A DNA stretch of 64,000 nt from Deltaproteobacteria bacterium (GTDB lineage Bacteria; Bdellovibrionota_B; Oligoflexia; Oligoflexales; Bog-1112). The stretch is taken from the NCBI GenBank assembly GCA_020635195.1, contig JACKAG010000002.1, positions 120,671-184,670 on the forward strand. The letters run 5' to 3'. The position numbers and the translations under genes were made by a program. Below are positions 31,696-45,332 of the stretch, piece by piece (the stretch's first letter is position 1; each line of letters begins with the position of its first letter). Below the pieces are notes generated by a model that was given only the letters and a program-made list of their open reading frames with translations, was not told where the DNA came from and made no database searches.

Positions 31696-33856
31696 ACTGT
31701 ATGATGAAACATCTAAAAAAAATCAGAGCTTTGAAAAAAGGCTCAGAAGAGTTATTTTTCTTCTCATGATAACGGTGTCCTTTTTTTTTACGGGAATCGT
31801 ATCAATTATTTCCGGCAAATATATTTATGATCTCTCGTTAAAATTAGATGATATGACGGTTCAGAATAGTGCAGATACAATATCAAAAATATTAAAAAGA
31901 GCTCTCGAAGATATCCGATTAAGTTCGCGGAATCCTGTTGTTATCAATAGTCTTATTTCTTATGATGAAGAGACATTGTCATTTGTTCTGTCCAGCCTTC
32001 AAAAGAGAATATTGGCAGAATTTGTATCGATTCGTGATTCAGATGGATTACTGATTTTTTCGGTAGATGCGACAGGGCGCAGAGCTTATCCTGAAATGCA
32101 TATGGGATATGAGCATAGATTTCGACTCATTAATGTTGAAAAGGATATTTTTGAAATCAGAGATTATATTGATATTGCTGTTCCTGTAAAATTTTATATG
32201 AAAAATCAAGGTTTTATTGAGGTCGTGATCAACCCAGAAAAACTGTTTTCTGCATATCTGGATACGGATTTTTTATATCAGTTTTCAGCTCAGAAAAAAT
32301 CTGCTCCGGATGGATATCTGATCGGCGCGGTTAATTTTCAGAATCCTGTTTCTGATATGACATCGGATATTATTTTTGAACAATACAGATCAGATCATCC
32401 CTATAAAAAATTAATTTCTGTCATAATTTATTCTCTTATTATTATAACATGTCTTGTTTTTCTTGTTTCTTTTATGATAGCAAAAAATATAGCTGATTAT
32501 TTTATCTCGCCAATCAGAAAGTTAGTCGCACTTATTTCAGGAAGCGATTTACGCCATTATACCAGATGTTCACCAACAGGAGCAGGGCTGGAAATTGAAT
32601 ATCTGGCAAAAGCTTTTGATCGTAGAACAGAGCAGTTGATTGAAAACAATAACTCACTCGAACAAAAAATTCTGGAGCGAACATATGAAATTCAGAAGGA
32701 AAAAGAGAGGGCAGAAAAAGCTCTTTCAATCCGTTCTGAGTTTATCGCGAATATGAGTCACGAAATCAGAACTCCCCTGAATGGAATCCTGGGTGTGGGT
32801 GATATTCTTGCGGAAGAACTGAAGAATTCAGATTCATCAGGAAAAGTAAAAATTTTGCAGCAAAGCGGTGAGCTTCTTCTTTCCATTATCAACGATATCC
32901 TGGATTTCTCTAAACTTGAATCAAAGCAGATGCTTGTTGAAAAAGTTTCTTTTAATCCTCGTTCTCTTATTAAGAACCTGATGGATGCGTTTGAAGATCA
33001 GGCAAACCAGAAAGGGCTTCATTTATCGTTATCTCTTCTTTCTCCTCTTCCGGAACAGTTTTATGGAGATCCAACCAGGATTTTACAGATACTTTTTAAT
33101 TTAACAGGCAATGCAGTCAAATTCACAAAGGAAGGGAGCATTTCTGTTATAGTCTCTGCTGAACAGATAAAATCGGAACGTTACTTTTTCAAAATAAGTG
33201 TAAAAGATACCGGTATTGGCATTCAGGATTCTATGATTCGAAGTTTGTTTAATCCTTTTTATCAGGCAGATGGCTCTATTACCCGCAGGTTCGGAGGGTC
33301 TGGTCTGGGCCTTACAATCTCAAAACAGCTGGCCGAGCTTATGGGTGGGCATATTGAGGTTGAGAGTATTTTTCAACAAGGAACCATCTTTACAGTGACA
33401 CTTCCTTTAGAGCTTTCACATGAGATTCTTTCAGATCAGGCTATGGGTTCTCATACAGCGTTTCATTTCAAAGAAGATATTAAAATTCTTCTTGCAGAAG
33501 ACAATGATGTGAATCGTGAATTGTTTAAGGCATATCTTTCTTCGATCGGACTATCGTGCGAGATTGCTGTTGACGGCTCAGAGGCCGTCAGGATGGCCAA
33601 AAATTATAGTTATGATTTTATTTTTATGGATATGCAGATGCCTGTTATGGATGGAATTACTGCAACCAGAGAGATCAGAAGTCTTCCTGAACATCAGAGG
33701 ACAAAAATTATTGCACTGACAGCAAATGCCTTTAATGAACACAGGCAACGCTGTCTGGATGCAGGTATGGATGATTACCTGAGTAAGCCATTAAAAAAGA
33801 AAAACCTGATTGCTCTTATACAAAAGATGTTTTCCGAATCTAAAGAAGAAAGTTAA
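31688..33856 (+). CDS. hybrid sensor histidine kinase (periplasmic sensor, HisKA, HATPase, receiver)
   Basis: Two TM segments flank a ~210-aa extracytoplasmic region. H-box SHEIRTPLNGI, G-box GSGLGLTIS, receiver DMQMPVMDG. Overlaps the upstream gene by 8 nt. Confidence 0.85.
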   Translation: MNELYDETSKKNQSFEKRLRRVIFLLMITVSFFFTGIVSIISGKYIYDLSLKLDDMTVQNSADTISKILKRALEDIRLSSRNPVVINSLISYDEETLSFVLSSLQKRILAEFVSIRDSDGLLIFSVDATGRRAYPEMHMGYEHRFRLINVEKDIFEIRDYIDIAVPVKFYMKNQGFIEVVINPEKLFSAYLDTDFLYQFSAQKKSAPDGYLIGAVNFQNPVSDMTSDIIFEQYRSDHPYKKLISVIIYSLIIITCLVFLVSFMIAKNIADYFISPIRKLVALISGSDLRHYTRCSPTGAGLEIEYLAKAFDRRTEQLIENNNSLEQKILERTYEIQKEKERAEKALSIRSEFIANMSHEIRTPLNGILGVGDILAEELKNSDSSGKVKILQQSGELLLSIINDILDFSKLESKQMLVEKVSFNPRSLIKNLMDAFEDQANQKGLHLSLSLLSPLPEQFYGDPTRILQILFNLTGNAVKFTKEGSISVIVSAEQIKSERYFFKISVKDTGIGIQDSMIRSLFNPFYQADGSITRRFGGSGLGLTISKQLAELMGGHIEVESIFQQGTIFTVTLPLELSHEILSDQAMGSHTAFHFKEDIKILLAEDNDVNRELFKAYLSSIGLSCEIAVDGSEAVRMAKNYSYDFIFMDMQMPVMDGITATREIRSLPEHQRTKIIALTANAFNEHRQRCLDAGMDDYLSKPLKKKNLIALIQKMFSESKEES

Positions 33857-33874
33857 CAGATATATTTTTGATTT

Positions 33875-34627
33875 TTAATCAAGTAATAATGTGCAGATCA
33901 GAGTGCTCCAGCTTTCAACAAAAAGGCCGGATTTATTTTTTCTTGGACGGTATTTTGCCTGATAGACGGAGTTTAGTACTTTCTGATCCATTCCAAAACC
34001 AATCTTTCTTCTGAGCTTTGCTTTGATGACGGAACCTTTTTTATCAATATAAACATCTACAGGGAATTTTCCTTCGATTTCAGCATCGAGAGCTGCTTCT
34101 GTATATGCAGGAGGTGTATATGATATAAGAATAGCAGGAGATGATAAATCTTCTGTGATTTGATCAACCTTCATCGTCCTGATACCCTGATCCGGGGCCA
34201 GCAATGTATTGCCATAAGGAGCTGAGATTCCCGAAGACTTTGAACTGAAAGATTCTGCTTTGAGCCCCTGTACTACCTTTATTTTTTTGTTTTTTTTAAC
34301 TTTTTCTTTTTTACTCTTTTTATGAGTTGATTTGATTTCAGAAGGCGGCTTTATTTTTTTTTTCACGGATGGCGGAGGTTCAGGGTCTGCCTCTATTTTT
34401 TTTATTTCGGACTCTTTCTGAGGAATGACTTCCGGTGATGTTTTTTTTATTTTTGAGACCGTAATCTTTACAGGCCTCTTATAAGAGGATTCCTTTTTTT
34501 GATGAAGATATCTGTGGTTAAGCAAAAAAAGAAAAGACAAATGAAGCGTTGTCGCGAGGGTGATATTAAAAGTCAGGCCAGAATAAAAAAATCTGCTTAA
34601 CATCTTAGAATGTTTCAGATTCTTCAT
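33875..34627 (-). CDS. TonB-family protein
   Basis: N-terminal TM helix, Lys/Pro-rich spacer (PEPPPSVKKKIKPPSE) and a TonB C-terminal-domain pattern (YTPPAYTEAALDAEIEGKFPVDVYIDKKGSV). Confidence 0.65.
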   Translation of the reverse strand: MKNLKHSKMLSRFFYSGLTFNITLATTLHLSFLFLLNHRYLHQKKESSYKRPVKITVSKIKKTSPEVIPQKESEIKKIEADPEPPPSVKKKIKPPSEIKSTHKKSKKEKVKKNKKIKVVQGLKAESFSSKSSGISAPYGNTLLAPDQGIRTMKVDQITEDLSSPAILISYTPPAYTEAALDAEIEGKFPVDVYIDKKGSVIKAKLRRKIGFGMDQKVLNSVYQAKYRPRKNKSGLFVESWSTLICTLLLD

Positions 34628-34698
34628 CAGTTTTTTATCCGTTTCTTCTGCTCTCCTTTGTCAGGAGTATTGTTCGGTATACTGAGTTTATTTTCTGT

Positions 34699-35667
34699 TT
34701 ATTTATGCTTGTCATCATCATGAAGACAGACACGATTTCTGCCGTTTTTTTTTGCTTTATATAAAGCGGCATCCGCACGGGATATTGCTTCGTTGCCTGA
34801 TTCATATCCGATTTTTATCTGTGACAGGCCAAGGCTCATGGTTACCGGTATGTTTGTTCCGTTAAAAATAAAAGTATCGGCTTCAATTGCCGAACGAAGC
34901 TTTTCTGCTGCCAGAAGAGCTCCTTTGATTTCTGTTGAAGGAAGAATCGCAAGAAACTCCTCTCCACCATATCTGCATAGAATATCAGATTTCCGGAAGT
35001 TCTGCCGGAATATGTGTGCGACCTTCTCAAGAATAAAATCACCAGCCTGATGTCCCCATGTATCATTGACAGATTTAAAATGATCAATATCCGCCATAAT
35101 AATCGATATTTTCTGCTCTGATCCTGGATTGTTGGAAAAATCTCTCAGAGCATTTGGAAGGTATTGTTCAAAATATACGCGGTTATATAATCCTGTTAAT
35201 TTATCTGTAATGGACTGCGTTGCTTTTACTTTATATTTATCCTGAAGATTTGTTTCTGCTGTTACATCACGGATCAGAATAAAGCTTCCGGGAGACTGAT
35301 CCTCGGAAGGGATAGATAAGGGATAGATACCAAGAATCAGATTAAGGCCGCTTCGGTCTTCTGTATCTCCTCTGACTTCATCTATTCTCGTGGGTGTCTG
35401 ATGTGAGAGAATCTGCTGTATACTGAGAGGCTTTCCGGCAATATTCATTGTGATAAGATGATCAAAACTATCTGCTTTGAGTATTTGTCGTGAGCTTTTT
35501 CCTGTCAGGGAAGAAAAAAGCTGATTGCATTTCAGTATCTGACCCGTCTTGTCAACAAGAGCATAGGCATCGAGCAAGGCTTTGCAGAAGTGCTCAAATG
35601 GACGGAAGGCTTCAAGTGCAGGCTTTTCCGATTTTTTTTCTTTTATTTTTCCTGTTGCTCCTGTCAC
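34699..35667 (-). CDS. PAS-GGDEF diguanylate cyclase
   Basis: RYGGEEFLAIL active-site motif, DHFKSVNDTWGH, and an N-terminal PAS-like region. Confidence 0.85.
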   Translation of the reverse strand: MTGATGKIKEKKSEKPALEAFRPFEHFCKALLDAYALVDKTGQILKCNQLFSSLTGKSSRQILKADSFDHLITMNIAGKPLSIQQILSHQTPTRIDEVRGDTEDRSGLNLILGIYPLSIPSEDQSPGSFILIRDVTAETNLQDKYKVKATQSITDKLTGLYNRVYFEQYLPNALRDFSNNPGSEQKISIIMADIDHFKSVNDTWGHQAGDFILEKVAHIFRQNFRKSDILCRYGGEEFLAILPSTEIKGALLAAEKLRSAIEADTFIFNGTNIPVTMSLGLSQIKIGYESGNEAISRADAALYKAKKNGRNRVCLHDDDKHK

Positions 35668-35695
35668 GACAGATACCCTTTTGCTTTAATGAAGA

Positions 35696-36178
35696 CTATT
35701 TAGCGTGATCAAGCCAGCTGAAAAATTCATTTTCAAGCTCTTCCATTTCCATGGTTTCACCACATTTCTGACATGTGATTTCCGGGACTTCTTCATCAGG
35801 ACTTGTCGGGAGGTTTTCTCCTTCGGTAAATAACTGAAGATGCTGAGAATCACAATTCTCACATACGTAGCTTGCAAAAACAGAACGAATATGAGATTTC
35901 CCTCGAAAATTCGGGATCATATTGATCTGGCTTACAATTTCCGGAGGACACTCTTCAAACGTGATATTTCGTGATTTTTCAGCTTCCCTTAGAAAATTAA
36001 TCCAGGCACGAACGCCACAGCTGTTGATAGATGTAACATGTTTCATGTTGAAAACACATGTACTTTCAAGATGTTTTGGAAGTTCGGCAAGAGATACTTC
36101 GGCATCTTCGTTGATCTCTCCGTTGAAGTATACGTACTCTCCGTCGTCTTGTTTTTTGGTCTGAAAGGTCAGGTCCAT
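35696..36178 (-). CDS. STAS-domain protein with C-terminal 4-Cys zinc ribbon
   Basis: VFNMKHVTSINSCGVRAWINFLRE is a STAS-like core. The C-terminus has CENC...(33 aa)...CQKC. Confidence 0.5.
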   Translation of the reverse strand: MDLTFQTKKQDDGEYVYFNGEINEDAEVSLAELPKHLESTCVFNMKHVTSINSCGVRAWINFLREAEKSRNITFEECPPEIVSQINMIPNFRGKSHIRSVFASYVCENCDSQHLQLFTEGENLPTSPDEEVPEITCQKCGETMEMEELENEFFSWLDHAK

Positions 36179-36305
36179 AGGCTTGTTTCATCCTTTGTCA
36201 GCTCAGTGAGGCAAACTTCCACGCGACTGATCGGAAACGATATGTGATTCTTAAGGTCAGACAGGAGATTTTCAGAAAAATTCCTTTGATAGCTATGGGA
36301 TAAAG

Positions 36306-36327
36306 ATTTAACAAAAGTTTGTTAAAT
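36306..36327. promoter_or_regulatory. perfect palindrome atttaacaaa-ag-tttgttaaat (10-bp arms)
   Basis: Read directly from the sequence, in the 212-bp gap upstream of the STAS gene. Confidence 0.45.
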
Positions 36328-36337
36328 AAATAAGGAA

Positions 36338-36349
36338 ATCTTATAAGAT
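36338..36349. promoter_or_regulatory. 12-bp perfect palindrome atcttataagat
   Basis: Read directly from the sequence, 10 nt from the previous palindrome. Confidence 0.4.
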
Positions 36350-36390
36350 CTGTCTGCGATGGAATAGGGGGGGGGTGTCTATTTTACGGT

Positions 36391-37653
36391 TCAGTCCGCC
36401 GGTGGGCGCAGATCTTGTCCTATAGCGTAAATTTCCGGACATGACTCTGCTTCTTTTAGCCAGGTATTCAGGTGCCCTGCTTTTCCTCTCTCCATTGAGA
36501 AGCCCTGTATGATCTGATCTTTCATAGGGATAAGAAGTCTGTCATGTAAGATGTTATGAATTCTGGAGCGATCTTTTCTTCCGTACCATGCCACAGGTGC
36601 AGGAACTTTAAATTCAACCGTCACACTATCCTTTGGATAGGCTGCAAAGGCGGTTCCCGAATCGTTTCGGAAATAGATATCAAGAGGAATGAAATCTGAC
36701 TTTTTATGCCAGACAGGTCTGTGAAAACGGACATTTTCATCCATTGTGATCTGATACTGAACGGAAAGGAATTTCTGATCCGGGGGAACAGGCCGTGTTT
36801 TTTTGAAAAATCTGGAAAATAAGCCGGATTTTTCTTTTTTATGAGTGACTGCTAAGGGATATTGCTTTTCATCAAAAGCAAGGGCCTTACGGTTATAGCT
36901 TATGACCCATAATGGTTTCAGAAAGGCAGGATTACGCTTTGCAAGGAAATGAATGGTATCCAGAAGCATTTTGTCTTGTCCGGGGGGATTGAGTTTCTTT
37001 TTTTCTGATTCTTCGAGAATTTCTGAGAATAATTTTTCAGCGTTTCGGCTGCCAGGTCGGACAGAAAAAAGCCGGATCAGCAGTGCATCAGGGACAGAAA
37101 TTCGGTATTTATGCACAGAATGTTCTTCTGACGGGCTTGGATTTTTTATTTTAAGCTCAAGGATTCCGGACGTTCTGCTGGCCTCAGAACGCATTATAGC
37201 CGAGATTTCTCCTGAGGGTGATTGCTGATATGTCATATAAAATCGTACCCTCATCCTTAATTTTGTCATGATGCCATGATTAAAAAATCTGGCTGATAAA
37301 CCGTAAAAAGTAACTGTTGCTCGTATTTTACCTGGGTCTTCATGCTCTCTGGAAACAAAGTGGATACCTGACTGCTCTTTGAGAAAATTCTGGATAGAAT
37401 TCCAGCTTTCTTGTCTGAGAACGGATTTTTTTTCCCTGCGGTTATTGGTTGTGTTTGTCTGACCGGATATTTTTCGCAGATCAGTGATGAGCTGTATCCC
37501 TTTATATGTCGGAATCGAGAATTTTTTACAGACTTGTTCTGATCTGAGATAGGACAGCCATTCCGCTCCATTTTCAGATAATGCGATCTCTGCTCCAGAA
37601 GATGTAAAAGACTCAAGGCTCAGAAACAGAAGAAAAATAATGGTGTACTTCAT
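36391..37653 (-). CDS. secreted VTC/CYTH-like (triphosphate-tunnel) domain protein
   Basis: Signal peptide. An ordered series of charged beta-strand motifs resembles bacterial VTC domains: LRMRVRFY, ILELKIKN..VHKYRISV, VISYNRKALAF, YQITMDENVRF, VTVEFKVP. The CDS is solid; the family call is tentative. Confidence 0.45.
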   Translation of the reverse strand: MKYTIIFLLFLSLESFTSSGAEIALSENGAEWLSYLRSEQVCKKFSIPTYKGIQLITDLRKISGQTNTTNNRREKKSVLRQESWNSIQNFLKEQSGIHFVSREHEDPGKIRATVTFYGLSARFFNHGIMTKLRMRVRFYMTYQQSPSGEISAIMRSEASRTSGILELKIKNPSPSEEHSVHKYRISVPDALLIRLFSVRPGSRNAEKLFSEILEESEKKKLNPPGQDKMLLDTIHFLAKRNPAFLKPLWVISYNRKALAFDEKQYPLAVTHKKEKSGLFSRFFKKTRPVPPDQKFLSVQYQITMDENVRFHRPVWHKKSDFIPLDIYFRNDSGTAFAAYPKDSVTVEFKVPAPVAWYGRKDRSRIHNILHDRLLIPMKDQIIQGFSMERGKAGHLNTWLKEAESCPEIYAIGQDLRPPAD

Positions 37654-37674
37654 ACAGACTCCTGTTCTGAAAGA

Positions 37675-40600
37675 TCATAGTCCGGTGAAGTTACCGGGAA
37701 GACCTGAGTAAAGTTCTCCGAGATAATCTGACTGTGAAACCGATGTTTTAACAAGTTCGGATGGGAGAAAAATTTTTTCGTATCGAAGGTAATGTTGTAC
37801 AGGGGGAAGGTGCTGCAGTTTTCCCCAGTGCTGAGCCATGTAGCGTCGTGCTGTCAGTTGCTGAAGATCCTGAAGATTAGAGTAAGATCTGTGAATTCCA
37901 TAAATCTCTCCGATAACGAGCATTCCATCAGATCCGAGGTATTGCTCAAGAGCTTTCGTTCCAATATTCGAATTATAGAAGGCATAGATAAAATCAAGAA
38001 GTGCAGAAGCCATTTTTCTATGATCTCGATGCTCCGCAGAAATCATATTCTGTATCTTTAAAAATTTTTTAAACAAGGTTCTTCTTCGAAAAAAAAGAGC
38101 TTTTTTCTGTATCTGATTCAGCTGGATGTTGCAGTGTGTTTGAATATTTTCTTTTGAAAAAAACGATCGTACAAACTCTTTAAACTCCTGGTAATCCTGA
38201 TCTCGTATACGTTCCAGTAAGGTTCCTCCATCGATGAGAATTCTTGTTTTTGCATAAATTTTTTTATATTTCGGGGCGAATATTTCATCAGGAAGCTGTC
38301 TTTCTTCATAAAAGATTCCCCCTTCTGGTGAATACCTTCGGTTAAGTTCATTGATCAGACGATACACTCCGTCTCTTTTCAGGCTTCTGTGGTAATCCGT
38401 TACATCGATGACTCCAACGCAGTTCATAGGATTATCTTCGTCCATTTCAATCCACAAACGCTTACTGTTTCCAAGAGGAACCAGAATATTTTTTTCGCCA
38501 AAGTCAGGCGTGATTTTTTCGATCCCGACCACGCTCTTTTTTGTTACCGACTGCCTGATAAAAGACTTTTTGTCTCCGTTGTTTCGCTCTATCATCACAG
38601 CGTCAGAACTTTTCTGACGAAAGTAATCAAAGATAAATCCGATGTGAAAATCCTTTATTTTTGTTTTATGATAGCCTGTTATCTGAAATTTTTTTATGAA
38701 TCCATCTTCTTCATTGAGGGACTGGTCGAACGGAAGGTGGCTGGGATGATGAATTAAGTTTTTTAACTTTTTATAATATTTTTTATAGTGATACTCACCA
38801 ATCGCTGTTGCAGAAAGATAACGATCAAAACCCGGAGGAGACAGGACGAAATCCTGTAAATTCTGTTTCTGTTTCTGTATTGATGCTGCTATATGGAGGA
38901 GTGAACGCCTTGTTGCAACAATATTAAGATCAAGAAGATTAAGGCGACCAGAGGCTCCGGAGGATTTTATGGCTTCCTGAATCAGGTGTATCGATCCATA
39001 CTGATCTTTTAATATATTTTTTGGATGACTCTGTATCCAGTGGATCGCTGCCCCGGCTCCGGAGCTGATGACAGGAACATCTTTGACGGGGAATCGTGCA
39101 TCTACGTCTGACGCAAGAGAAATACCCCATGCTGTTTCCTGCCGCCAGACCTCCAGGGGTTTCATGTCAACCAGAGCATATTTAGCAGGATTTTTCATAA
39201 GACGGAATAATCTGAATGGGCGCAGATAGGCTTTTTTAACTGTTTCTGCAAACTGAATCATCTGAAATTGCATTTTAAAAACTTCGAATGAGGCAGAGAC
39301 AGAAACGGGAAACCAGCTGAGTAATTTATTGAGTAGTCCGGAGGACACCCCAATATTAAAACTGAGTGTGTCCGTGATCATATAGGGATGTCCTTTCATG
39401 TTTCCTTTCTTATCCGGAGCTGATAAAAGCTGTGGTGAAATCCCGACAGAGCGACTCAGACTGACACTGATGCCGGTGCCAAGAGAGTGTTCGCCAAGAA
39501 TCTGATGATCTGCCGCGGAAGGAAGGTCGGCTTCTGCATGTGTGTGATTGTTCAGGATATGACTTTGATTATTTTTGACTTTTGTCTGGTAATGCAGATT
39601 GAGTCTTTGAGTGATGGTGTCCTGACTGATGATTGATCCAAGTAACCCGGTCAGAAATGTAATCCATGTTTGCTGAGTCAGGACAAAATCATTTTTCCCT
39701 TCAAATGCTGTCTGAACAACACGGCCTTTTTTTACGGCACCGTCGATATTAATGCTTTTAAGATCCGGAATTTCAAAAAGATCATATTCTTTTTCAAGCT
39801 GGAAAGATTTTATAATTTCATTACGCCTTTGCATGATCTTGATGCTATAAACCCTCTGTACAGCATCTGGCATTCCTGATAAATAAAGTGATTTTTTGAT
39901 TTCTTCTGAGCTAATACTGGCAATTTTTCTTGCCATCCATTTGAGATCATTCCAGTCTGAATATTTGTCGACACTTTTTTTTCTGTAAAAATCATTCCAT
40001 CGTATTTTTATATCTCCGGAAGAGTTTGTTTTTATCATACTCTTTTCAAACTCATTTACTTTGTATTTATCGCTGATATTGAGAATATGAGATGGTTTTC
40101 TCAATAGCATGCAGGGGCCAAGGGCGAACCCTGTATCCTGAAGTCGGATCAGGGGCTTCATACCTTCTTCTGTTTTTTTTAAGATAAATTTATAGTTTTC
40201 TGCCTTTGTATCATTGATGTTTAGCCATGCTTTCCAGAGTAAATGACCGCGAAACTCCCTCCGAAGCGGCAGGTCCCAGCTTCCCGGATCAGCAGAGGAA
40301 ACCCGTAGCTCATCGTCGGGGTGGATTTCAATCAGAGCGTCATTAAGAACAAACCATTCCTCACCCCCCGGATCTTTTCCGTGAGAAATGACCAGCCGGA
40401 TCAGGTCTTTTAATCCGTACTTTTGGATAAATCTTGATCGGAAATCTTCATAGCTAAGATCGCCAAGCCATATTTTCAGCATAGGTTCGTAGCGCATATG
40501 ATCGTGGTTAAAACCAGCATACTGACCCAACATACTGACTGCAATTTCGGTGTGGACTTCTGGACCGAATTTGATTTTGACTTTATAAAAGCGGTCTGAT

Positions 40601-41487
40601 TTTCTATATAACCCTGTAATTTTAGGTGAAAAGTTTCCTTTGAAGCGGACTCTCTTAAAGGTGATTTTTGTGGATTTGTCTGGATAGTCTTCACGATATT
40701 CCTGGCCGATATGTTTGCGATATTCAGGATCAGGGCTGGTCCAGAAAGGGCTGATTCCGGGATCAAGCAGGGAAAGATCAAAGTGGCATGCCGGGCTTTT
40801 GAGAATACGTAGTTCATCTGGGGTGAGAAATTTTCCTGCTTTTATATTATATCCGAGACAATGAGCGATCTGTTCTTTGTATGCATCTGATGTGACCAGA
40901 TTGATTGCATCAGGATTTTTTTCGTTATTTTTTTTACGAATGTAGTGAGAACGAAACATATTTTTAATAATTGGTGACATGTCTTTATCATAATTCCAGT
41001 AAGTTCTGTGAGCTTTTGGGGAAAAAAAACTAAGGTATCCACGGATAAAAGTATCGATGGCTGCCTGAATACGGTCAGATGAAGGATCATTTTCTCTGAT
41101 TCTTTCTGAGATGATCTTAGCCATGGGCAGTAGATACTCGTCAAAGACAAAAATGATAGGATGTGTATTTTTATTTTTTAAAGCGGATGTATGTGAGCTC
41201 AGATCAGTTTTGACATCGATGTTGACTTTTTCTGTAAATTTAGTCTCATAAAGATCTTTTTCAATAAAGTTTCGTTCCTGAATGAGCCGCTGAATGAATG
41301 CGTCAGCTTTTTCAGACGAAAAGAGGCCATTCTCTTTAAATGTTTCTTCGATAAAGTCGTCAGAGAGAGATTTTATTTCTGATGTACTGTGGTCGCGGCT
41401 GATGAGAAAAGGGTGAGCAAATATTTTTCCGTAAAAATAAACGGAGAAAAAAAATATCAGAGACCATCGCGCAACTATATTTTGCAA
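37675..41487 (-). CDS. 1270-aa secreted protein with a CotH-like / protein-kinase-like core (aa ~275-460)
   Basis: Signal peptide. VRFKGNFS...RFYKVKIKFG (Lys strand), EVHTEIAVS (acidic helix), NDTKAENY (D-x-K-x-x-N) and, 20 aa later, LQDTGFALG (DFG-like). The remaining ~800 aa are unrecognised. The CDS is very likely real; the function is inferred. Confidence 0.5.
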   Translation of the reverse strand: MQNIVARWSLIFFFSVYFYGKIFAHPFLISRDHSTSEIKSLSDDFIEETFKENGLFSSEKADAFIQRLIQERNFIEKDLYETKFTEKVNIDVKTDLSSHTSALKNKNTHPIIFVFDEYLLPMAKIISERIRENDPSSDRIQAAIDTFIRGYLSFFSPKAHRTYWNYDKDMSPIIKNMFRSHYIRKKNNEKNPDAINLVTSDAYKEQIAHCLGYNIKAGKFLTPDELRILKSPACHFDLSLLDPGISPFWTSPDPEYRKHIGQEYREDYPDKSTKITFKRVRFKGNFSPKITGLYRKSDRFYKVKIKFGPEVHTEIAVSMLGQYAGFNHDHMRYEPMLKIWLGDLSYEDFRSRFIQKYGLKDLIRLVISHGKDPGGEEWFVLNDALIEIHPDDELRVSSADPGSWDLPLRREFRGHLLWKAWLNINDTKAENYKFILKKTEEGMKPLIRLQDTGFALGPCMLLRKPSHILNISDKYKVNEFEKSMIKTNSSGDIKIRWNDFYRKKSVDKYSDWNDLKWMARKIASISSEEIKKSLYLSGMPDAVQRVYSIKIMQRRNEIIKSFQLEKEYDLFEIPDLKSINIDGAVKKGRVVQTAFEGKNDFVLTQQTWITFLTGLLGSIISQDTITQRLNLHYQTKVKNNQSHILNNHTHAEADLPSAADHQILGEHSLGTGISVSLSRSVGISPQLLSAPDKKGNMKGHPYMITDTLSFNIGVSSGLLNKLLSWFPVSVSASFEVFKMQFQMIQFAETVKKAYLRPFRLFRLMKNPAKYALVDMKPLEVWRQETAWGISLASDVDARFPVKDVPVISSGAGAAIHWIQSHPKNILKDQYGSIHLIQEAIKSSGASGRLNLLDLNIVATRRSLLHIAASIQKQKQNLQDFVLSPPGFDRYLSATAIGEYHYKKYYKKLKNLIHHPSHLPFDQSLNEEDGFIKKFQITGYHKTKIKDFHIGFIFDYFRQKSSDAVMIERNNGDKKSFIRQSVTKKSVVGIEKITPDFGEKNILVPLGNSKRLWIEMDEDNPMNCVGVIDVTDYHRSLKRDGVYRLINELNRRYSPEGGIFYEERQLPDEIFAPKYKKIYAKTRILIDGGTLLERIRDQDYQEFKEFVRSFFSKENIQTHCNIQLNQIQKKALFFRRRTLFKKFLKIQNMISAEHRDHRKMASALLDFIYAFYNSNIGTKALEQYLGSDGMLVIGEIYGIHRSYSNLQDLQQLTARRYMAQHWGKLQHLPPVQHYLRYEKIFLPSELVKTSVSQSDYLGELYSGLPGNFTGL

Positions 41488-41592
41488 CGTCAGAACTCCT
41501 TGTTTTTTATTAAAACTGAAGCACGGACTAAAGATATCAGTAAAGTGAGTTATGATGACAGAACAAAATAAAAGAGAGAGAACAAAATATAT

Positions 41593-42603
41593 TTAATTGA
41601 GGACGTAGCGGAACATTCCACGGATATTTATTTTTTTTCCGAAGGAATGAGGCAGGGGAGCAAAGGGAGCAGCCATCCGGACAGCTTCCATAATTGCAGA
41701 ATCAAGAATTTTATGTCCGGAAGAATCCAGCACCATAATTTTTGATACCTTTCCGTCATGATTGATTGTGAATTTCAGGAAAACATTGCCATATAATCTT
41801 TTTCTGACAGCGTTGGATGGATACACCCAGGCGAGTTCGATGGCTTTTCTCAGGCTGGTAAAGTATCCAATATACCTGTATTCTTGTGTATTCAGATCGA
41901 GAACCTGTCCTGCTTCGATGCTGTCATCTATATAGTCCTGGTAGCCGGCAGCGACCTCTTCTGCCATGACGGGAAGTGAGTTACCCAGTAATCTTTCGTA
42001 GTTGTTTTGTTCTTTTGCATCTTTTCCGGAGTGCAACTGAAGGCCAGCTCCTGTCTCGGAAATTTTCAAACCTGATTTTAAAAGAGATTTGTGGCTTTTC
42101 TGATTCTTTGCTGCCAGAGTCTTTTCTGGCTGTTTGTTCTGTCTTGGTGTTTTTTTTCTGGCTATTTGTTGCTGCTGTGGGGCGGTGACTGTTTGTTTGC
42201 TGGAGGGACCAGGGGTTCTGGCCCGACTTATTTTTTTTACTCTGGTTTCTTTCTCTGTCTGATGGGTCTGGTATCCCAGTCTTGCCTGCTTTGGGTCTGG
42301 TGCTTTCGTGGTTTTTTTCTGGATCACTTCTGCAATTTGTTTTGTGGGTTTTTCCTTTTCTCTGTTCTGATCATCTTTTTGTTCTGCTTTTTTTGCTTCA
42401 GCGGAGGGCTTTTGAAATGTAATCCGGACGAGAGTTGGTTTCTGTGGCGGATTTTCTGGAAAATAATTATGATATTCTGAAGATAGAAGAAGCAGGCTGA
42501 TCATATGAATGAGCCAGGAGATGCCCATAAAGCTCAGAATGAGCCATAAGCCCGATGATGGCATCCGGAGCCCTGATCTTGTGTGATCTCGCTGCTCTCC
42601 CAC
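41593..42603 (-). CDS. TonB C-terminal-domain protein with Lys/Gln/Pro-rich linker
   Basis: TM helix, a low-complexity basic linker, and a C-terminal GNVFLKFTINHDGKVSKIMVLDSSGHKILDSAIMEAVRMAAPFAPLP (TonB_C pattern). GTG 42603 or an internal ATG start. Confidence 0.6.
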   Translation of the reverse strand: MGEQRDHTRSGLRMPSSGLWLILSFMGISWLIHMISLLLLSSEYHNYFPENPPQKPTLVRITFQKPSAEAKKAEQKDDQNREKEKPTKQIAEVIQKKTTKAPDPKQARLGYQTHQTEKETRVKKISRARTPGPSSKQTVTAPQQQQIARKKTPRQNKQPEKTLAAKNQKSHKSLLKSGLKISETGAGLQLHSGKDAKEQNNYERLLGNSLPVMAEEVAAGYQDYIDDSIEAGQVLDLNTQEYRYIGYFTSLRKAIELAWVYPSNAVRKRLYGNVFLKFTINHDGKVSKIMVLDSSGHKILDSAIMEAVRMAAPFAPLPHSFGKKINIRGMFRYVLN

Positions 42604-42844: not shown

Positions 42845-43630
42845 ATGCTCAGGATGGCTCTAACCTCGCTTATATGCGTGGGACTTCTGCTGGCTTGTAC
42901 TGCAAAAGATTTTGATCCGGAAAACCCCGGACGTTCGTATGTTATTGCCAAAGAACCGTATGATGATGGAAATTATGAGCTTGCCATCACGAAACTGGGA
43001 GAGTTTACATCGGTTTTTCCGTATAGCGAGTATGCGAAAGAGGCTGCTTTGCTGATAGCCGATGCACATTTTCAGATAAAACACTATCCGGAAGCAGCGG
43101 ATGCGTATCATCGCTTTGTCACCCTGCATCCGCAGCATTCGCAGTGTGCCTTTGCTCAGTTCAGAATAGGTCAGTGTTATTGGAACGATGCCTCAAAGGA
43201 TGCTGACCGGGATCTCGAATTTATCAGTAAAGCCATCAGGGCATGGGAATTGCTGATAAAGGAGTATCCGAAGTCCTCTTATGTTGATCAGGCAAGGAAG
43301 CTGATAGAGCAGGGACGAGAGCTTCATGTTCTGGGAGAAGAGTTCGTAGCAGATTTTTACTGTCGCCAGGAAATCTGGCATGCCTGTGCGTACAGGCATA
43401 TACAGCTGGCAGATACTGCTCCAGCCCGCTATCAGGAGCAGATTATCAATTCTCTGGAAAAAGCAGCAGAGGCTCTCCGGCGTTTGTCTGAGGCATGGAC
43501 AAAAGATCAGGAGGATAAGAACCTCTATTTTAAGAATATGTCGTCCGCTGAACTGCGTCAGCAGTCGGAAAAGATGAAACATAAAGCGGCTCAGCTTCGC
43601 AAATTACGGCGATCTTCTGAAACTACATAA
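42845..43630 (+). CDS. bamD: outer-membrane protein assembly factor BamD (TPR lipoprotein)
   Basis: Lipobox LLAC. TPR-like pattern YVIAKEPYDDGNYELAITKLGEFTSVFPYSEYAKEAALLIADAHF typical of BamD/YfiO. Confidence 0.8.
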   Translation: MLRMALTSLICVGLLLACTAKDFDPENPGRSYVIAKEPYDDGNYELAITKLGEFTSVFPYSEYAKEAALLIADAHFQIKHYPEAADAYHRFVTLHPQHSQCAFAQFRIGQCYWNDASKDADRDLEFISKAIRAWELLIKEYPKSSYVDQARKLIEQGRELHVLGEEFVADFYCRQEIWHACAYRHIQLADTAPARYQEQIINSLEKAAEALRRLSEAWTKDQEDKNLYFKNMSSAELRQQSEKMKHKAAQLRKLRRSSETT

Positions 43631-44357
43631 GAAATCTTCCAATACAAACAGGAGCCACCCCAGCGACCAGGATGCCGCAGCAGGAAAGAGGGAGACAGTA
43701 GGCCAGAGTTTTTGGATCCAGTATCCGGATCATGATTTCTCTGAAGCATGAGTTGTTTTGTGTCGATTCTGTGGATTCTGTCCCGTATGGCTGGCTGCTC
43801 CTGTTCTGTGGCTGAGTCATGCCAGTGCTGGCTGTGGCTGTGGCTGGGGAGGGATTTATGATCCGTGGACGGAGCAGCTGTTCTTTCTTAACGAATTCAT
43901 CTAACAGGTGTTTAAAATCATCATTAAGTTTGGGGTGGATTTTGGCAAGAAGGCATTTTGTCTCTTGCTCCGGATCATGTTGCTTGTCTGTGGTGATTGG
44001 AGCTCCGCTTTCCAGAAGGTGCTGGCACCGGGAGCAGATTTGGGTGCGGCACAGAGGGCAGCTTGGGGCAGGTGCGGAACTTGTTAGCAAACAGTGAAGC
44101 AGGCAGGATGGATGCAGCGTTTCAAAGTGCCTATGCACCTCCTCTGAAAAATATGGCATGAAAGGATCTGGAAAGACTTCTTCTTCTATGTATGTGAAGC
44201 AGATAACGCAAGTATTAGGCTGTTCAGCTTCTGCTATGTCTACCGTTGTATGGTCAGAATCGTAGGGGAGATTTTCTGTCGCCAACATGGGCAGGCATAT
44301 TCCTGACAGGAATGTCAGAGGCAGCAGTTTCAGGGACAAATACAGGGCTGTTTTCAT
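43623..44357 (-). CDS. signal-peptide / RING-H2-like Cys-His domain / tail-anchored protein, paralogue 1 of 4
   Basis: MKTALYLSLKLLPLTFLSGICLPMLATEN...CVIC...HFETLHPSC...SCPLCRTQICSRCQHLLE...hydrophobic C-terminus. The 3' end overlaps the bamD 3' end by 8 nt. The CDS is supported by four-fold paralogy; the function is inferred. Confidence 0.6.
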   Translation of the reverse strand: MKTALYLSLKLLPLTFLSGICLPMLATENLPYDSDHTTVDIAEAEQPNTCVICFTYIEEEVFPDPFMPYFSEEVHRHFETLHPSCLLHCLLTSSAPAPSCPLCRTQICSRCQHLLESGAPITTDKQHDPEQETKCLLAKIHPKLNDDFKHLLDEFVKKEQLLRPRIINPSPATATASTGMTQPQNRSSQPYGTESTESTQNNSCFREIMIRILDPKTLAYCLPLSCCGILVAGVAPVCIGRFLM

Positions 44358-44465
44358 AGTTCACCAGATGCTTATGGGGAAATTTCGGGGACTTCAGGCA
44401 GTGCCCCATTGAAACAACGGGCCATTGAAGCATAAAACAGCAGGCATAGCGAGCTTATGGGCGCA
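44358..44465 (-). promoter_or_regulatory. conserved upstream module of paralogue 1
   Basis: Contains the 22-nt box cattgaagcataaaacagcagg (44423-44444, + strand), a second ccattgaa (44406-44413), and the conserved ccagatgcttatg next to the start codon. Confidence 0.5.
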
Positions 44466-44522
44466 CTGGGCTTTGCCAGAGGAGCGCTCAGGGCATTGTA
44501 AGATGCATGTCACGACAAAAAA

Positions 44523-45191
44523 TTATATGGATGTAGATAAAACCGGGACCAAAATAAAGGGAGTCACGACCATTGTGAACATGAGGAGTCTGAACTTAAA
44601 ATCTTTGCAGACAGGGGAAGCTGTGGAGCTGTTGCGGACATCGGAAGCTCTGGAGCTGTCATGAAATCTGAAAGGGCCGGAACACCTCGATTGTACCGAT
44701 TTTTTAATATCATCAGGATTATAGTCATGGCTTGCTGCAAGAGGGCAGTCATCATTTTTAGGAAGAAAAGTTTGCTGGTTTGTTATTAACCGGTCGGAAC
44801 CTTCCAGAAGATGCTGGCACCAGGGGCAGATGGTGGCGCGGCATGCCGGGCAGGATGGGGCAGCTTGGGTGCTTTTTAGCCAGAGGAGCATGCAGGAGGG
44901 GTGCAGCGCTTTAAAACATGAATGTTTTTGCTGTAAATGCCAGGATGTGAGTGGATCGAAAAGATCCGGAGCTACTTGCATTTTTATTTCCTCCAGACAG
45001 ATACAGCACTCTGGAATCTCCTGGGATTCAGACTCTTTTGTCTCTTCAGACTCTGTCATATCTAGCTCGATGTGATCAGGAATATAGTCAGGATAGTGCC
45101 CGGGATTTTCTGTGGCTCGCATGGGCAGACATATTCCAGACAGGAGGATCATAGGCAGAAATTTCAGGTACAAATACAGGGATTTTTTCAT
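44523..45191 (-). CDS. signal-peptide / RING-H2-like Cys-His domain / tail-anchored protein, paralogue 2 of 4
   Basis: CCICLEEI...(26 aa)...CFKALHPSCMLLWLKSTQAAPSCPACRATICPWCQHLLE. This is RING-H2 spacing with 7 of 8 ligand positions filled. Signal peptide and C-terminal TM segment. Confidence 0.6.
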   Translation of the reverse strand: MKKSLYLYLKFLPMILLSGICLPMRATENPGHYPDYIPDHIELDMTESEETKESESQEIPECCICLEEIKMQVAPDLFDPLTSWHLQQKHSCFKALHPSCMLLWLKSTQAAPSCPACRATICPWCQHLLEGSDRLITNQQTFLPKNDDCPLAASHDYNPDDIKKSVQSRCSGPFRFHDSSRASDVRNSSTASPVCKDFKFRLLMFTMVVTPFILVPVLSTSI

Positions 45192-45295
45192 AGTTCACCA
45201 GATACTTATGTGGAAATCTTTGAGGGTTCAATGGCTCTCTGCTAAAATAACGAGCCCCATTGAAGCATAAAACAGCAGGCATGGCGATCCTGTCC
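45192..45295 (-). promoter_or_regulatory. conserved upstream module of paralogue 2
   Basis: 22-nt box at 45258-45279. Inverted pair ttcaatgg (45227-45234) / ccattgaa (45257-45264). Confidence 0.5.
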
Positions 45296-45332
45296 GGAGT
45301 CTTATCTGACTGTGTCTGCCAGACAGATTTTC

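What the first reader, a model, noticed from the sequence alone, without database searches (positions are those of the whole stretch)
36391..41487. Giant secreted protein with a CotH-like atypical-kinase core, paired with a signal-peptide VTC/CYTH-like protein
Seen in sequence: residues ~275-460 of the 1270-aa protein (nt 40108-40665) carry these motifs in order:
- VRFKGNFS...RFYKVKIKFG, a candidate nucleotide-binding Lys strand
- EVHTEIAVS, an acidic helix
- NDTKAENY, a D-x-K-x-x-N catalytic-loop pattern
- LQDTGFALG, 20 residues later, a DFG-like metal site

That order is the protein-kinase-like fold. The strings resemble what I recall of the CotH family (RGNSS...KKS[FY]K[IL]KF and D....NY..Y....D.D..FG).

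The gene 21 nt downstream encodes a signal-peptide protein with the ordered charged beta-strand motifs of a VTC/CYTH triphosphate-tunnel domain.

Knowledge recalled, to be verified: CotH kinases are atypical protein kinases, and bacterial cotH genes are frequently adjacent to VTC-domain genes.

Inference: this is an extracytoplasmic kinase / triphosphate-tunnel pair embedded in an unusually large protein (~800 further residues with no recognisable domain) and flanked by TonB-like proteins. I do not recognise this arrangement.
Basis: partly seen in the sequence, partly recalled or inferred. Interest (0 to 1): 0.65.

Follow-up and report, generated by a model that had tools for sequence, protein, structure and literature searches.

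The report
Exported kinase-like giant protein with VTC partner
Two neighbouring genes encode an exported 1,270-residue protein with a kinase-like core and an exported polyphosphate-polymerase-like (VTC) tunnel protein; the large one belongs to an unannotated family found in predatory bacteria (Bdellovibrionota), and it is not a CotH.

Summary

**The 420-aa protein is a VTC-type triphosphate-tunnel protein.**
- Its AlphaFold model has pLDDT 81.
- The top eight PDB matches are all Vtc4/Vtc2 tunnel domains (E 2e-7 to 4e-5).
- Pfam VTC hits are marginal. The tunnel's charged residues are invariant in ten homologues.

**The 1,270-aa protein has no Pfam, NCBIfam or PDB sequence match, and no CotH signal.**
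- An exhaustive search finds 475 related clusters.
- Nearly all 33 genome hits are Bdellovibrionota.
- The model (pLDDT 88, pTM 0.89) has a protein-kinase-like core at aa 272-561.
- K289, E310, D426-x4-N431, D451-x-G and D514 are conserved in 96-100% of 101 homologues.
- Foldseek ranks Ser/Thr kinases top in two libraries, but only weakly (E about 1e-3).
- The rest is family-specific: a helical N-region, a roughly 420-aa beta-rich domain that is probably not membrane-embedded, and a helical C-domain.

**Gene context.** The VTC-like gene is the only recurrent neighbour (9 of 47 loci, three arrangements). The TonB neighbours are not conserved.

**Verdict.** This is a new kinase-like family with an extracytoplasmic VTC-like partner. 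It resembles CotH-VTC clusters but is not a member of them. Function is inferred, not shown.

The parts
37675..41487 (-). Gene for the 1270-aa exported multidomain protein (BIG), equal to NCBI MCB9228447.1 'hypothetical protein'
   Evidence: ORF list and translation. Identical database protein. 475 homologous clusters.
41416..41487 (-). Signal-peptide-like N-terminus of BIG, aa 1-24 (MQNIVARWSLIFFFSVYFYGKIFA)
   Evidence: Read from the sequence. Most full-length homologues also start with a Sec-type signal sequence. No predictor was run.
40675..41415 (-). N-terminal, mostly helical, family-specific region, aa 25-271. It contains the invariant L197, D237 and P269.
   Evidence: Model secondary structure. 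Conservation.
39805..40674 (-). Protein-kinase-like core, aa 272-561
   Evidence: Model pLDDT is mostly above 90. The element order is b1-b2-b3-helixC-b4 ... helixE-loop-b7-b8-DxG-helixF. Foldseek top hits are Ser/Thr kinases in PDB and BFVD.
40546..40650 (-). N-lobe motifs, aa 280-314: GNFSPK (K289 invariant), KVKIKFG (K304, K306), and EVHTE (E310 invariant, E314)
   Evidence: Column counts in 101 sequences.
40117..40221 (-). Catalytic-loop-like D426-T-K-x-x-N431 followed by b7, b8 and D451-T-G453 (aa 423-457)
   Evidence: D426 96/101, N431 96/101, D451 100/101, G453 99/101. Position after helix 410-422 in the model.
39919..39957 (-). Helix-F-like segment DLKWMARKIA, aa 511-523, with invariant D514, W517 and R520
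   Evidence: The analogy to the kinase subdomain IX 'DxW' motif is inference.
39493..39804 (-). Connecting segment, aa 562-665, including the only low-confidence stretch (aa 621-669) and the most variable sequence
38230..39492 (-). Beta-rich domain, aa 666-1086, of about 16 long antiparallel strands
   Evidence: Model. Weak Foldseek matches to 22-strand TonB-dependent transporters. The strands carry 13-48% charged residues on both faces across the family, so a lipid-embedded barrel is unlikely.
37678..38229 (-). C-terminal helical domain, aa 1087-1270, conserved to the last residues (GEIxG, RRY..HWG, PPxQ)
36391..37653 (-). Gene for the 420-aa exported VTC-type triphosphate-tunnel protein (SMALL), equal to NCBI MCB9228446.1
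37591..37653 (-). Signal-peptide-like N-terminus of SMALL, aa 1-21
   Evidence: Read from the sequence. Homologues are similar.
36454..37446 (-). TTM tunnel domain of SMALL, aa ~70-400. Conserved tunnel residues: R72xE74xK76, R133xR135xR137xY139, E166xK168xK170, K182-Y-R184, Y253xR255, Q301xT303xD305, E347xK349.
   Evidence: Model pLDDT 81, pTM 0.81. The top 8 PDB matches are Vtc4/Vtc2/VTC complex. Pfam VTC gives 17.3 bits here, 24.0 in P0006 and 20.3 in L038. Invariant residues in 10 sequences.
41593..42603 (-). Context only: a TonB-like gene 105 nt upstream on the same strand. This neighbour is not conserved.
   Evidence: Pfam TonB_C E 4e-15. No TonB-like gene is a conserved neighbour in the other loci.

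Best explanation
This is a two-gene module of Bdellovibrionota. Both products leave the cytoplasm through Sec signal peptides.

The 1270-aa protein is built around a protein-kinase-like domain (aa ~272-561). That domain keeps a full set of catalytic-type residues:
- a Lys in b2/b3 (K289, K306);
- a Glu at the start of helix C (E310);
- D426-x4-N431;
- D451-x-G;
- a helix-F Asp (D514).

I therefore take it to be an active phosphotransferase, or a related nucleotide-dependent transferase, rather than a dead scaffold. The kinase-like domain is held in a rigid family-specific frame of helical N-region, beta-rich domain and helical C-domain. That frame presumably provides targeting or substrate binding.

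The 420-aa partner is a soluble, exported VTC-type triphosphate-tunnel enzyme with an intact charged tunnel. It should bind a triphosphate or polyphosphate chain. In the lineages that carry it next to the kinase gene, it most likely makes, trims or removes the tri-/polyphosphate compound that the kinase uses or produces. The working site would be the periplasm, the cell surface or the invaded prey.

What is shown:
- the folds;
- the conserved residues;
- the export signals (by eye);
- the phyletic range;
- the gene linkage.

What is inferred:
- catalytic activity;
- location;
- substrate;
- the functional coupling of the two proteins.
For: BIG (the 1270-aa protein):
- The model has pLDDT 88 and pTM 0.89 from a 61-sequence alignment.
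- The order of elements is typical of a kinase, and residue conservation fits.
- About 42 of the top 50 PDB matches are Ser/Thr or Tyr kinases, the best at E 1.7e-3 with probability up to 0.77.
- An independent viral library again puts kinases on top. It also gives a 273-aa phage 'transferase' at probability 1.00 and TM 0.57 normalised to the target.

SMALL (the 420-aa protein):
- The top 8 PDB matches are Vtc4/Vtc2 tunnel domains, E 2e-7 to 4e-5, probability 1.00.
- Pfam VTC hits occur in 3 of 9 members, one of them above the gathering score.
- Tunnel residues are invariant in 10 sequences at 28-50% identity.

Linkage:
- A VTC-like gene is adjacent in 9 of 47 loci.
- It lies downstream in 6, upstream on the same strand in 2, and upstream and divergent in 1.
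- The BIG homologues in these loci are only 24-56% identical.
- No other neighbour is conserved.
- Every VTC-like homologue found lies next to a BIG homologue.

Export: signal peptides are seen in most homologues of both proteins.

Phyletic range: 32 of 33 genome hits are labelled Oligoflexales, Bdellovibrio, Pseudobdellovibrio, Halobacteriovorax, Bacteriovoracaceae or similar.
Against: - No structural match for BIG reaches E<=1e-3. TM-scores to kinases are low (<=0.29 of the target).
- The kinase hits are not independent of one another.
- No sequence method links the core to any kinase family. Pfam, NCBIfam and PDB profile searches found nothing, and hhalign against recalled PKA/CDK2/PknB and against CotH failed.
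- One homologue (L005) has N in place of D426.
- Which Lys binds nucleotide is unclear, and the Lys-Glu spacing is much shorter than in canonical kinases.
- ATP is not expected in the periplasm.
- About 80% of the loci lack an adjacent VTC-like gene, so the kinase-like protein does not need it in cis.
- Export signals were judged by eye only.
Confidence: 0.6

Rival explanations
1. The large protein is a true, divergent member of the CotH kinase family. The pair would then be an orthologous copy of the CotH-VTC clusters of Firmicutes.
For: - The motifs look alike. The [KR]GNxS...K.YK[IV]K[IF] motif resembles CotH's RGSH...KKSYHISF.
- D-x4-N-Y followed about 20 residues later by an acidic metal site resembles CotH's D228 and D251. 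D228/D251 are described as catalytic in PMC7821199. The spacing can be seen in the CotH sequence validated.
- A CotH-VTC cluster is documented in PMC2879425.
Against: - No PF08757 hit at E<=10 in 42 family members.
- hhalign of a 101-sequence profile against CotH gives probability 4%, and the aligned regions are non-equivalent.
- 5JD9/5JDA are absent from the top 50 structural matches, which are canonical kinases.
- The architecture is entirely different: 1270 aa against about 360 aa.
Confidence: 0.1
2. The core is not an enzyme. It is either a pseudokinase or a fold that only resembles a kinase. On this reading the protein is a structural or adhesive envelope component of predatory bacteria, and the VTC-like neighbour acts independently.
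For: - Structural matches are weak (E about 1e-3, low TM).
- No sequence link to any kinase.
- About 75% of the protein is non-kinase scaffold.
- Most loci lack the partner.
Against: - Conservation falls exactly on the residues a kinase needs (K, E, D..N, DxG, helix-F D), at 96-100% across sequences as little as 15% identical.
- Pseudokinases usually lose some of these residues.
- Gene linkage survives three different rearrangements.
Confidence: 0.2
3. The protein is an outer-membrane beta-barrel (TonB-dependent-transporter-like or autotransporter-like). It would display or export the kinase-like domain and work with the adjacent TonB-like protein.
For: - About 16 long antiparallel strands in the model.
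- Foldseek matches to FemA, FoxA and FhuA at E 5e-3 to 1.4e-2, and to phage-encoded SusC and autotransporter beta-domains.
- TonB-like genes on both sides in the window.
Against: - Strands carry 13-48% charged residues on both faces across 52 homologues, and 24% of the domain is charged.
- No Plug, TonB_dep_Rec or autotransporter Pfam hit.
- TM-scores are only 0.10-0.17.
- TonB neighbours are absent from nearly all other loci.
Confidence: 0.08
4. The adjacency of the two genes is an accident of shared ancestry in a few related genomes. It would then say nothing about function.
For: - Only 9 of 47 loci have it.
- Three of those (window, L001, L002) are close relatives at 55-56% identity.
Against: - The other six loci have BIG homologues at 24-34% identity.
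- The partner appears in three different positions and orientations, which argues for selection rather than inheritance of one arrangement.
- No other neighbour is shared.
- All ten VTC-like homologues whose locus could be read lie next to a BIG gene.
Confidence: 0.1

Closest known systems
CotH atypical protein kinases (Pfam PF08757; B. cereus CotH structures 5JD9/5JDA), which sit next to VTC-domain genes in some Firmicutes
   Same: - Kinase-like fold that acts outside the cytoplasm.
- Similar-looking N-lobe Lys motif, and D-x4-N-Y plus a later acidic metal site.
- A VTC-domain gene as neighbour (C. perfringens NELoc-2, PMC2879425).
   Different: - No detectable sequence or profile similarity.
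- Canonical kinases, not CotH, are the best structural matches.
- 1270 aa with three extra domains, against about 360 aa.
- The VTC partner here is exported and soluble.
- No DUF4956 ('tubulin-like') membrane protein gene was seen among the neighbours that were scanned.
- Restricted to Bdellovibrionota.
Eukaryotic-type Ser/Thr protein kinases (Pkinase, PF00069)
   Same: - Best structural matches are GRK2, MK2, GAK, ERK5, RSK, CK2 and PKA, plus giant-virus kinases.
- Same order of b1-b3, helix C, catalytic loop D-x-K-x-x-N, DxG and a helix-F Asp.
   Different: - No HMM or hhalign signal.
- The Glu lies only 4-8 residues after the b3 Lys.
- The strictly invariant Lys is in b2 (K289).
- A long insertion lies between b4 and b5.
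- There is no HRD His and no APE motif.
- The protein is exported.
Yeast Vtc4/Vtc2 triphosphate-tunnel domains of the VTC polyphosphate polymerase (3G3Q, 3G3O, 7YTJ, 8I6V); Pfam VTC PF09359
   Same: - Tunnel fold (Foldseek E about 2e-7, probability 1.00).
- Rows of alternating Arg/Lys/Glu on the strands.
- Marginal Pfam VTC hits.
   Different: - 10-13% identity, with TM only 0.36-0.51.
- It has a signal peptide.
- It has no SPX domain and no membrane domain.
- It has extra helices at aa 29-63 and 203-240.
- No Vtc1-like channel partner is present, so synthesis coupled to translocation is not expected.
Soluble bacterial CYTH/TTM enzymes (triphosphatases such as YgiF; the CyaB-type cyclases)
   Same: Single-domain soluble tunnel enzyme with an R/E-x-E-x-K strand at the N-terminus of the tunnel.
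   Different: - Pfam and structure place it nearer to VTC than to CYTH.
- It is exported.
- It is about twice the size.

Membership tests
CotH (PF08757) | Match to the CotH profile HMM | tested here: not met
   No hit at E<=10 for the window protein, for 3 close homologues, or for 38 diverse members. The same library scores a genuine CotH at 332 bits.
CotH (PF08757) | Profile-level homology to a solved CotH | tested here: not met
   hhalign of the 101-sequence family profile against a CotH sequence gave probability 4% with an out-of-register alignment. That CotH sequence was validated against Pfam and against 5JD9.
CotH (PF08757) | Structure closest to CotH among kinase-like folds | tested here: inconclusive
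CotH (PF08757) | Catalytic Asp and metal-binding Asp about 23 residues apart (D228, D251) | tested here: met
   D426 and D451 are 25 residues apart and are conserved in 96 and 100 of 101 sequences. The CotH residues come from PMC7821199. This feature is shared by all kinase-like folds, so it is not specific to CotH.
Protein-kinase-like superfamily (fold level) | Bilobal fold with b1-b3, helix C, catalytic loop, DFG-like motif and helix F, in that order | tested here: met
   Model secondary structure. Kinases dominate the top matches in PDB and BFVD. The statistics are weak: best E 1.3e-3 to 1.7e-3.
Protein-kinase-like superfamily (fold level) | Conserved Lys, Glu, catalytic Asp, Asn and metal Asp | tested here: met
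   K289 101/101, K306 96/101, E310 101/101, D426 96/101, N431 96/101, D451 100/101.
Protein-kinase-like superfamily (fold level) | Nucleotide binding and phosphoryl transfer | not testable with these tools
   Needs biochemistry.
Pkinase (PF00069) | Match to the profile, or to canonical kinases | tested here: not met
   No Pfam hit. hhalign against recalled PKA/CDK2/PknB gave probability 0.65%.
VTC domain (PF09359) / triphosphate tunnel metalloenzymes | Match to the VTC profile HMM above the gathering score (23 bits) | tested here: inconclusive
   Window protein 17.3 bits (E 0.0036). Homologue P0006 24.0 bits, which passes. L038 20.3 bits. Six other homologues give no hit.
VTC domain (PF09359) / triphosphate tunnel metalloenzymes | Closed beta-barrel tunnel fold | tested here: met
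   Model pLDDT 81, pTM 0.81. The top 8 PDB matches are all Vtc4/Vtc2/VTC complex, E 2e-7 to 4e-5.
VTC domain (PF09359) / triphosphate tunnel metalloenzymes | Conserved basic and acidic residues lining the tunnel, including the N-terminal x-E-x-K strand | tested here: met
   R72, E74, K76, R135, R137, E166, K168, K170, K182, R184 and R255 are invariant in 10 sequences. E347 and K349 are conserved in at least 90%. The residue-by-residue match to Vtc4 catalytic residues was not checked.
VTC domain (PF09359) / triphosphate tunnel metalloenzymes | Polyphosphate polymerase or triphosphatase activity | not testable with these tools
   Needs biochemistry.
VTC complex (polyphosphate synthesis coupled to translocation) | Membrane channel partner (Vtc1-type or DUF4956) and SPX regulation | tested here: not met
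   The 420-aa protein has no TM segment. The window genes scanned from 25.6 to 48.9 kb include no such domain.
TonB-dependent transporter | Plug and TonB_dep_Rec domains, and a lipid-facing hydrophobic belt | tested here: not met
   No Pfam hits. The strands are charged on both faces. Foldseek matches are weak only.

The most novel reading that the evidence does not exclude
Predatory bacteria export a dedicated phosphorylation system that works where ATP is scarce, such as the periplasm, the cell surface or the invaded prey. In this reading a VTC-like tunnel enzyme supplies or recycles a tri-/polyphosphate phosphoryl donor for a new kind of scaffolded kinase. The recurring kinase-VTC pairing also seen with CotH would then reflect a general, so far unrecognised, polyphosphate-linked mode of extracytoplasmic protein or envelope phosphorylation.
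Probability: 0.12. Interest if true: 0.8.

Novelty: new variant of a known kind. Interest (0 to 1): 0.55.

Why it matters
- The large protein defines a family of hundreds of sequence clusters. The family has no Pfam or NCBIfam model and no described member that I could find. It is confined, as far as seen, to Bdellovibrionota, often with two or three copies per genome.
- A conserved, exported, apparently catalytically intact kinase-like protein is a concrete candidate for envelope or prey modification during predation.
- Its recurrent pairing with an exported VTC-type tunnel protein parallels the unexplained CotH-VTC adjacency in Firmicutes. This gives a second, independent system in which to ask what tunnel enzymes do for extracytoplasmic kinases.
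- If the activity were only structural, the finding would still add a new domain architecture to annotate in predatory bacteria.

Tried and rejected
Searches that found little or nothing:
- The word-indexed protein search found only 1 homologue of BIG and 3 of SMALL.
- A third search with a 52-sequence alignment again returned only the two known proteins, so it was wasted.
- The first genome scan, with a 4-sequence alignment, found nothing. The second, with a deeper alignment, worked.
- PDB sequence and profile searches with 4-, 10- and 101-sequence profiles found nothing relevant.
- hhalign against recalled PKA/CDK2/PknB, and against a validated CotH, found no signal.
- A Pfam scan of 38 members at E<=10 found no family hit by more than one member.

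Tools and papers that were unavailable:
- The 101-sequence alignment was too large for a structure job.
- The Nguyen et al. 2016 CotH paper is not held.
- A search for DUF4956 with VTC found no paper.

Uninformative results:
- The promoter and terminator scan gave counts equal to shuffled sequence.

Ideas considered and set aside:
- A TonB-dependent transporter or autotransporter reading of the beta-rich domain. The strands are charged on both faces and the TonB neighbours are not conserved.
- A PI3K/PI4K-like reading of the K-x-G-x-E and D-x-K-x-x-N motifs. This came from memory only. The structural matches were protein kinases, not lipid kinases.


Full report
**1. The observation**

The minus strand carries two genes 21 nt apart.
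- One ORF of 1270 aa at 37675-41487, with a TTG start.
- One ORF of 420 aa at 36391-37653.

NCBI calls the same two proteins 'hypothetical' in a MAG labelled Deltaproteobacteria bacterium: MCB9228447.1 and MCB9228446.1.

- GNFSPK, ending at K289.
- KVKIKFG, with K304 and K306.
- EVHTE, with E310 and E314.
- NDTKAENY, with D426 and N431.
- LQDTG, with D451 and G453.

Both proteins start with signal-peptide-like sequences and have no other hydrophobic segment (judged by eye). TonB_C-domain genes lie at 41593-42603 and 33875-34627.

**2. The small protein**

- Pfam gives a sub-threshold VTC hit: 17.3 bits against a cut-off of 23.
- Among nine homologues, one passes at 24.0 bits and another scores 20.3.
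- PDB sequence searches find nothing.
- An AlphaFold model from four sequences is good: pLDDT 81, pTM 0.81.
- Its eight best PDB matches are all tunnel domains of yeast Vtc4, Vtc2 or the VTC complex, at E 2e-7 to 4e-5 and probability 1.00. The ninth match falls to E 1e-2.
- In ten homologues at 28-50% identity, the charged residues on alternating positions of the strands are invariant or nearly so. These are R72xE74xK76, R133xR135xR137, E166xK168xK170, K182-Y-R184, Y253xR255, QxTxD305 and E347xK349.

So this is an exported, soluble, probably ligand-competent VTC-type triphosphate-tunnel protein. It has no SPX domain, no membrane domain, and no Vtc1-like or DUF4956-like gene nearby.

**3. The large protein by sequence**

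- There is no Pfam, NCBIfam or PDB match, and no CotH hit even at E<=10, in the window protein or in 41 relatives.
- The word-indexed search made it look nearly unique.
- An exhaustive HMMER search found 475 cluster representatives at E<=1e-3.
  - About 60 are full-length proteins of about 1250 aa at 24-34% identity.
  - A divergent group of about 1100 aa at 15-21% identity aligns over most of the length with a deeper profile.
- A scan of one genome per species found 33 loci.
  - All but one are labelled Oligoflexales, Bdellovibrio, Pseudobdellovibrio, Halobacteriovorax, Bacteriovoracaceae or a related taxon.
  - Several genomes have two or three copies.
- Most members have signal peptides.

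**4. The large protein by structure**

A model of aa 81-1270 from 61 sequences has pLDDT 88 and pTM 0.89. Only aa 621-669 are uncertain. Its parts are as follows.
- A helical N-region.
- A core at aa 272-561.
- A beta-rich domain of about 16 long strands at aa 666-1086.
- A helical C-domain.

In the core, the elements run in this order:
- strand 275-280;
- strand 289-296, starting at K289;
- strand 299-307, with K304 and K306;
- helix 311-323, preceded by E310;
- strand 330-340;
- an insertion;
- helix 410-422;
- loop D426-T-K-A-E-N431;
- strands 432-439 and 442-449;
- D451-T-G;
- later, helix 512-523 with D514, W517 and R520.

This is the order found in protein-kinase-like folds. The mapping onto kinase nomenclature is my inference.

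Conservation in 101 sequences:

| Residue | Conserved in |
|---|---|
| K289 | 101 |
| E310 | 101 |
| D514 | 101 |
| W517 | 101 |
| R520 | 101 |
| D451 | 100 |
| G453 | 99 |
| K306 | 96 (plus 5 R) |
| D426 | 96 |
| N431 | 96 |

Foldseek results:
- Against the PDB, no match reaches E<=1e-3.
  - About 42 of the top 50 are protein kinases, including GRK2 (1.7e-3), MK2, GAK, ERK5, RSK, CK2 and PKA.
  - The rest are TonB-dependent transporters.
- Against predicted viral structures, kinases dominate again.
  - The best hit is a 273-aa phage 'transferase' with probability 1.00 and TM 0.57 relative to the target.
- These kinase hits are not independent of one another, and their TM-scores are low.

I rate the kinase-like fold at about 0.75-0.8, not as proven.

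**5. Is it CotH?**

- A CotH sequence recalled from memory was validated by the tools. It scores 332 bits on PF08757 and matches 5JD9 at E 3.5e-141.
- hhalign of the 101-sequence family profile against it gives probability 4%, with non-equivalent regions aligned.
- CotH structures are not among the top 50 matches.
CotH's catalytic D228 and D251 (PMC7821199) are 23 residues apart, and D426 and D451 are 25 apart. This spacing is common to kinase-like folds in general.
- Canonical kinases are not detectable by sequence either.

The family is therefore a separate branch of the kinase-like fold.

**6. The beta-rich domain**

- The matches to FemA, FoxA and FhuA are weak: E 5e-3 to 1.4e-2, TM 0.10-0.17.
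- In the window protein, and averaged over 52 homologues, both faces of the strands carry 13-48% charged residues (only strand 780-798 has a face as low as 7%). The domain is 24% charged.
- There are no Plug, TonB_dep_Rec or autotransporter hits.

I infer a soluble sheet or barrel packed against the helical domains, not a membrane barrel. I could not inspect coordinates.

**7. Gene linkage**

Among 47 loci with a BIG homologue, a VTC-like gene is adjacent in nine.
- It lies downstream in the window, L001, L002, L003, L006 and L011.
- It lies upstream on the same strand in L012 and L017.
- It lies upstream and divergent in L038.

All ten VTC-like homologues whose locus could be read lie next to a BIG gene. 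Clustering all other neighbouring ORFs shows only local synteny among close Bdellovibrio and Pseudobdellovibrio genomes, and no other shared partner. TonB-like genes are not conserved neighbours.

So the VTC-like protein looks like an accessory of the kinase-like protein in some lineages.

**8. Mechanism**

Shown:
- two exported proteins;
- a kinase-like fold with intact catalytic-type residues;
- a VTC-type tunnel with intact charged lining;
- non-random linkage;
- restriction to a phylum of mostly predatory bacteria.

Inferred:
- The large protein is an active phosphotransferase, or a related transferase, working outside the cytoplasm.
- The tunnel protein handles the tri- or polyphosphate compound that the kinase uses or releases.

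The site (periplasm, surface or prey) and the substrate are unknown. The lack of ATP in the periplasm is the main conceptual difficulty. It is also the reason a polyphosphate-linked donor is worth testing.

**9. Comparison and novelty**

- It works like a secreted atypical kinase, and the pairing resembles CotH-VTC clusters (PMC2879425).
- It fails every CotH membership test that could be run.
- The small protein is a distant VTC-domain member.
- No paper describing the large family was found.

I class it as a new variant of a known kind: a new kinase-like family with a new architecture and an exported VTC-like partner.

Noticed in passing
window 43623-46901 (minus strand: 43623-44357, 44523-45191, 45333-45995, 46287-46901): A tandem array of four paralogous proteins of 204-244 aa at 31-46% identity. 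Each has a signal peptide. Each carries a conserved Cys/His pattern (CxIC ... H ... C ... CPxC ... CxxC) that gives weak RING-H2 hits (zf-ANAPC11 E 0.012, zf-RING_2 E 0.036). Each ends in a hydrophobic tail. Exported RING-like proteins in a bacterium could be effectors.
   Followed up: partly
window 29584-42603: A block of about 13 kb with lower G+C than its flanks: genes at 0.36-0.44 against 0.47-0.51. It holds the DctP-PBP fusion, a hybrid histidine kinase, both TonB-like genes, the GGDEF gene, the STAS-like gene and the kinase-like/VTC-like pair. It may have been acquired as a unit.
   Followed up: partly
window 29584-31695 and 31688-33856: A 703-aa protein fuses a TRAP-type DctP solute-binding domain to a type-1 periplasmic binding domain (Peripla_BP_6). 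It overlaps by 8 nt a hybrid histidine kinase with a receiver domain. This looks like an unusual two-receptor sensor pair.
   Followed up: no
window 35696-36178: A 160-aa protein with weak STAS / anti-sigma-antagonist similarity and a C-terminal pair of CxxC motifs (zinc-ribbon-like). It lies between the VTC-like gene and a PAS-GGDEF diguanylate cyclase at 34699-35667.
   Followed up: no
L001 1046-6363 and 15227-18092; L012 2457-7980; L013 351-5874: Mobile elements surround or disrupt the module. IS66-family and DDE_3 transposase genes flank the pair in L001. In L012 and L013 the BIG homologue is split by an integrase (rve) gene, with the N-terminal fragment left upstream.
   Followed up: partly
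L038 887-4693; L043 5806-9698; L021 2195-4318: In L038 and L043 the BIG homologue is broken into two or three ORFs, either by frameshifts or by assembly errors. L021 carries a second, partial copy on the opposite strand.
   Followed up: no
L026 (JBLHVN010000001.1): One full-length homologue sits on a 2.0-Mb contig of a MAG labelled Sulfitobacter sp. Every other genome hit is Bdellovibrionota. This could be a mislabelled bin or a transfer.
   Followed up: no
window 42845-43630 with 41593-42603; L001 21807-23810: A BamD/YfiO-like lipoprotein gene lies divergent from a TonB-like gene both in the window and in L001. In L001 this pair is about 8 kb away from the kinase-like/VTC-like pair, with IS elements in between. 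That suggests a rearranged shared neighbourhood.
   Followed up: no
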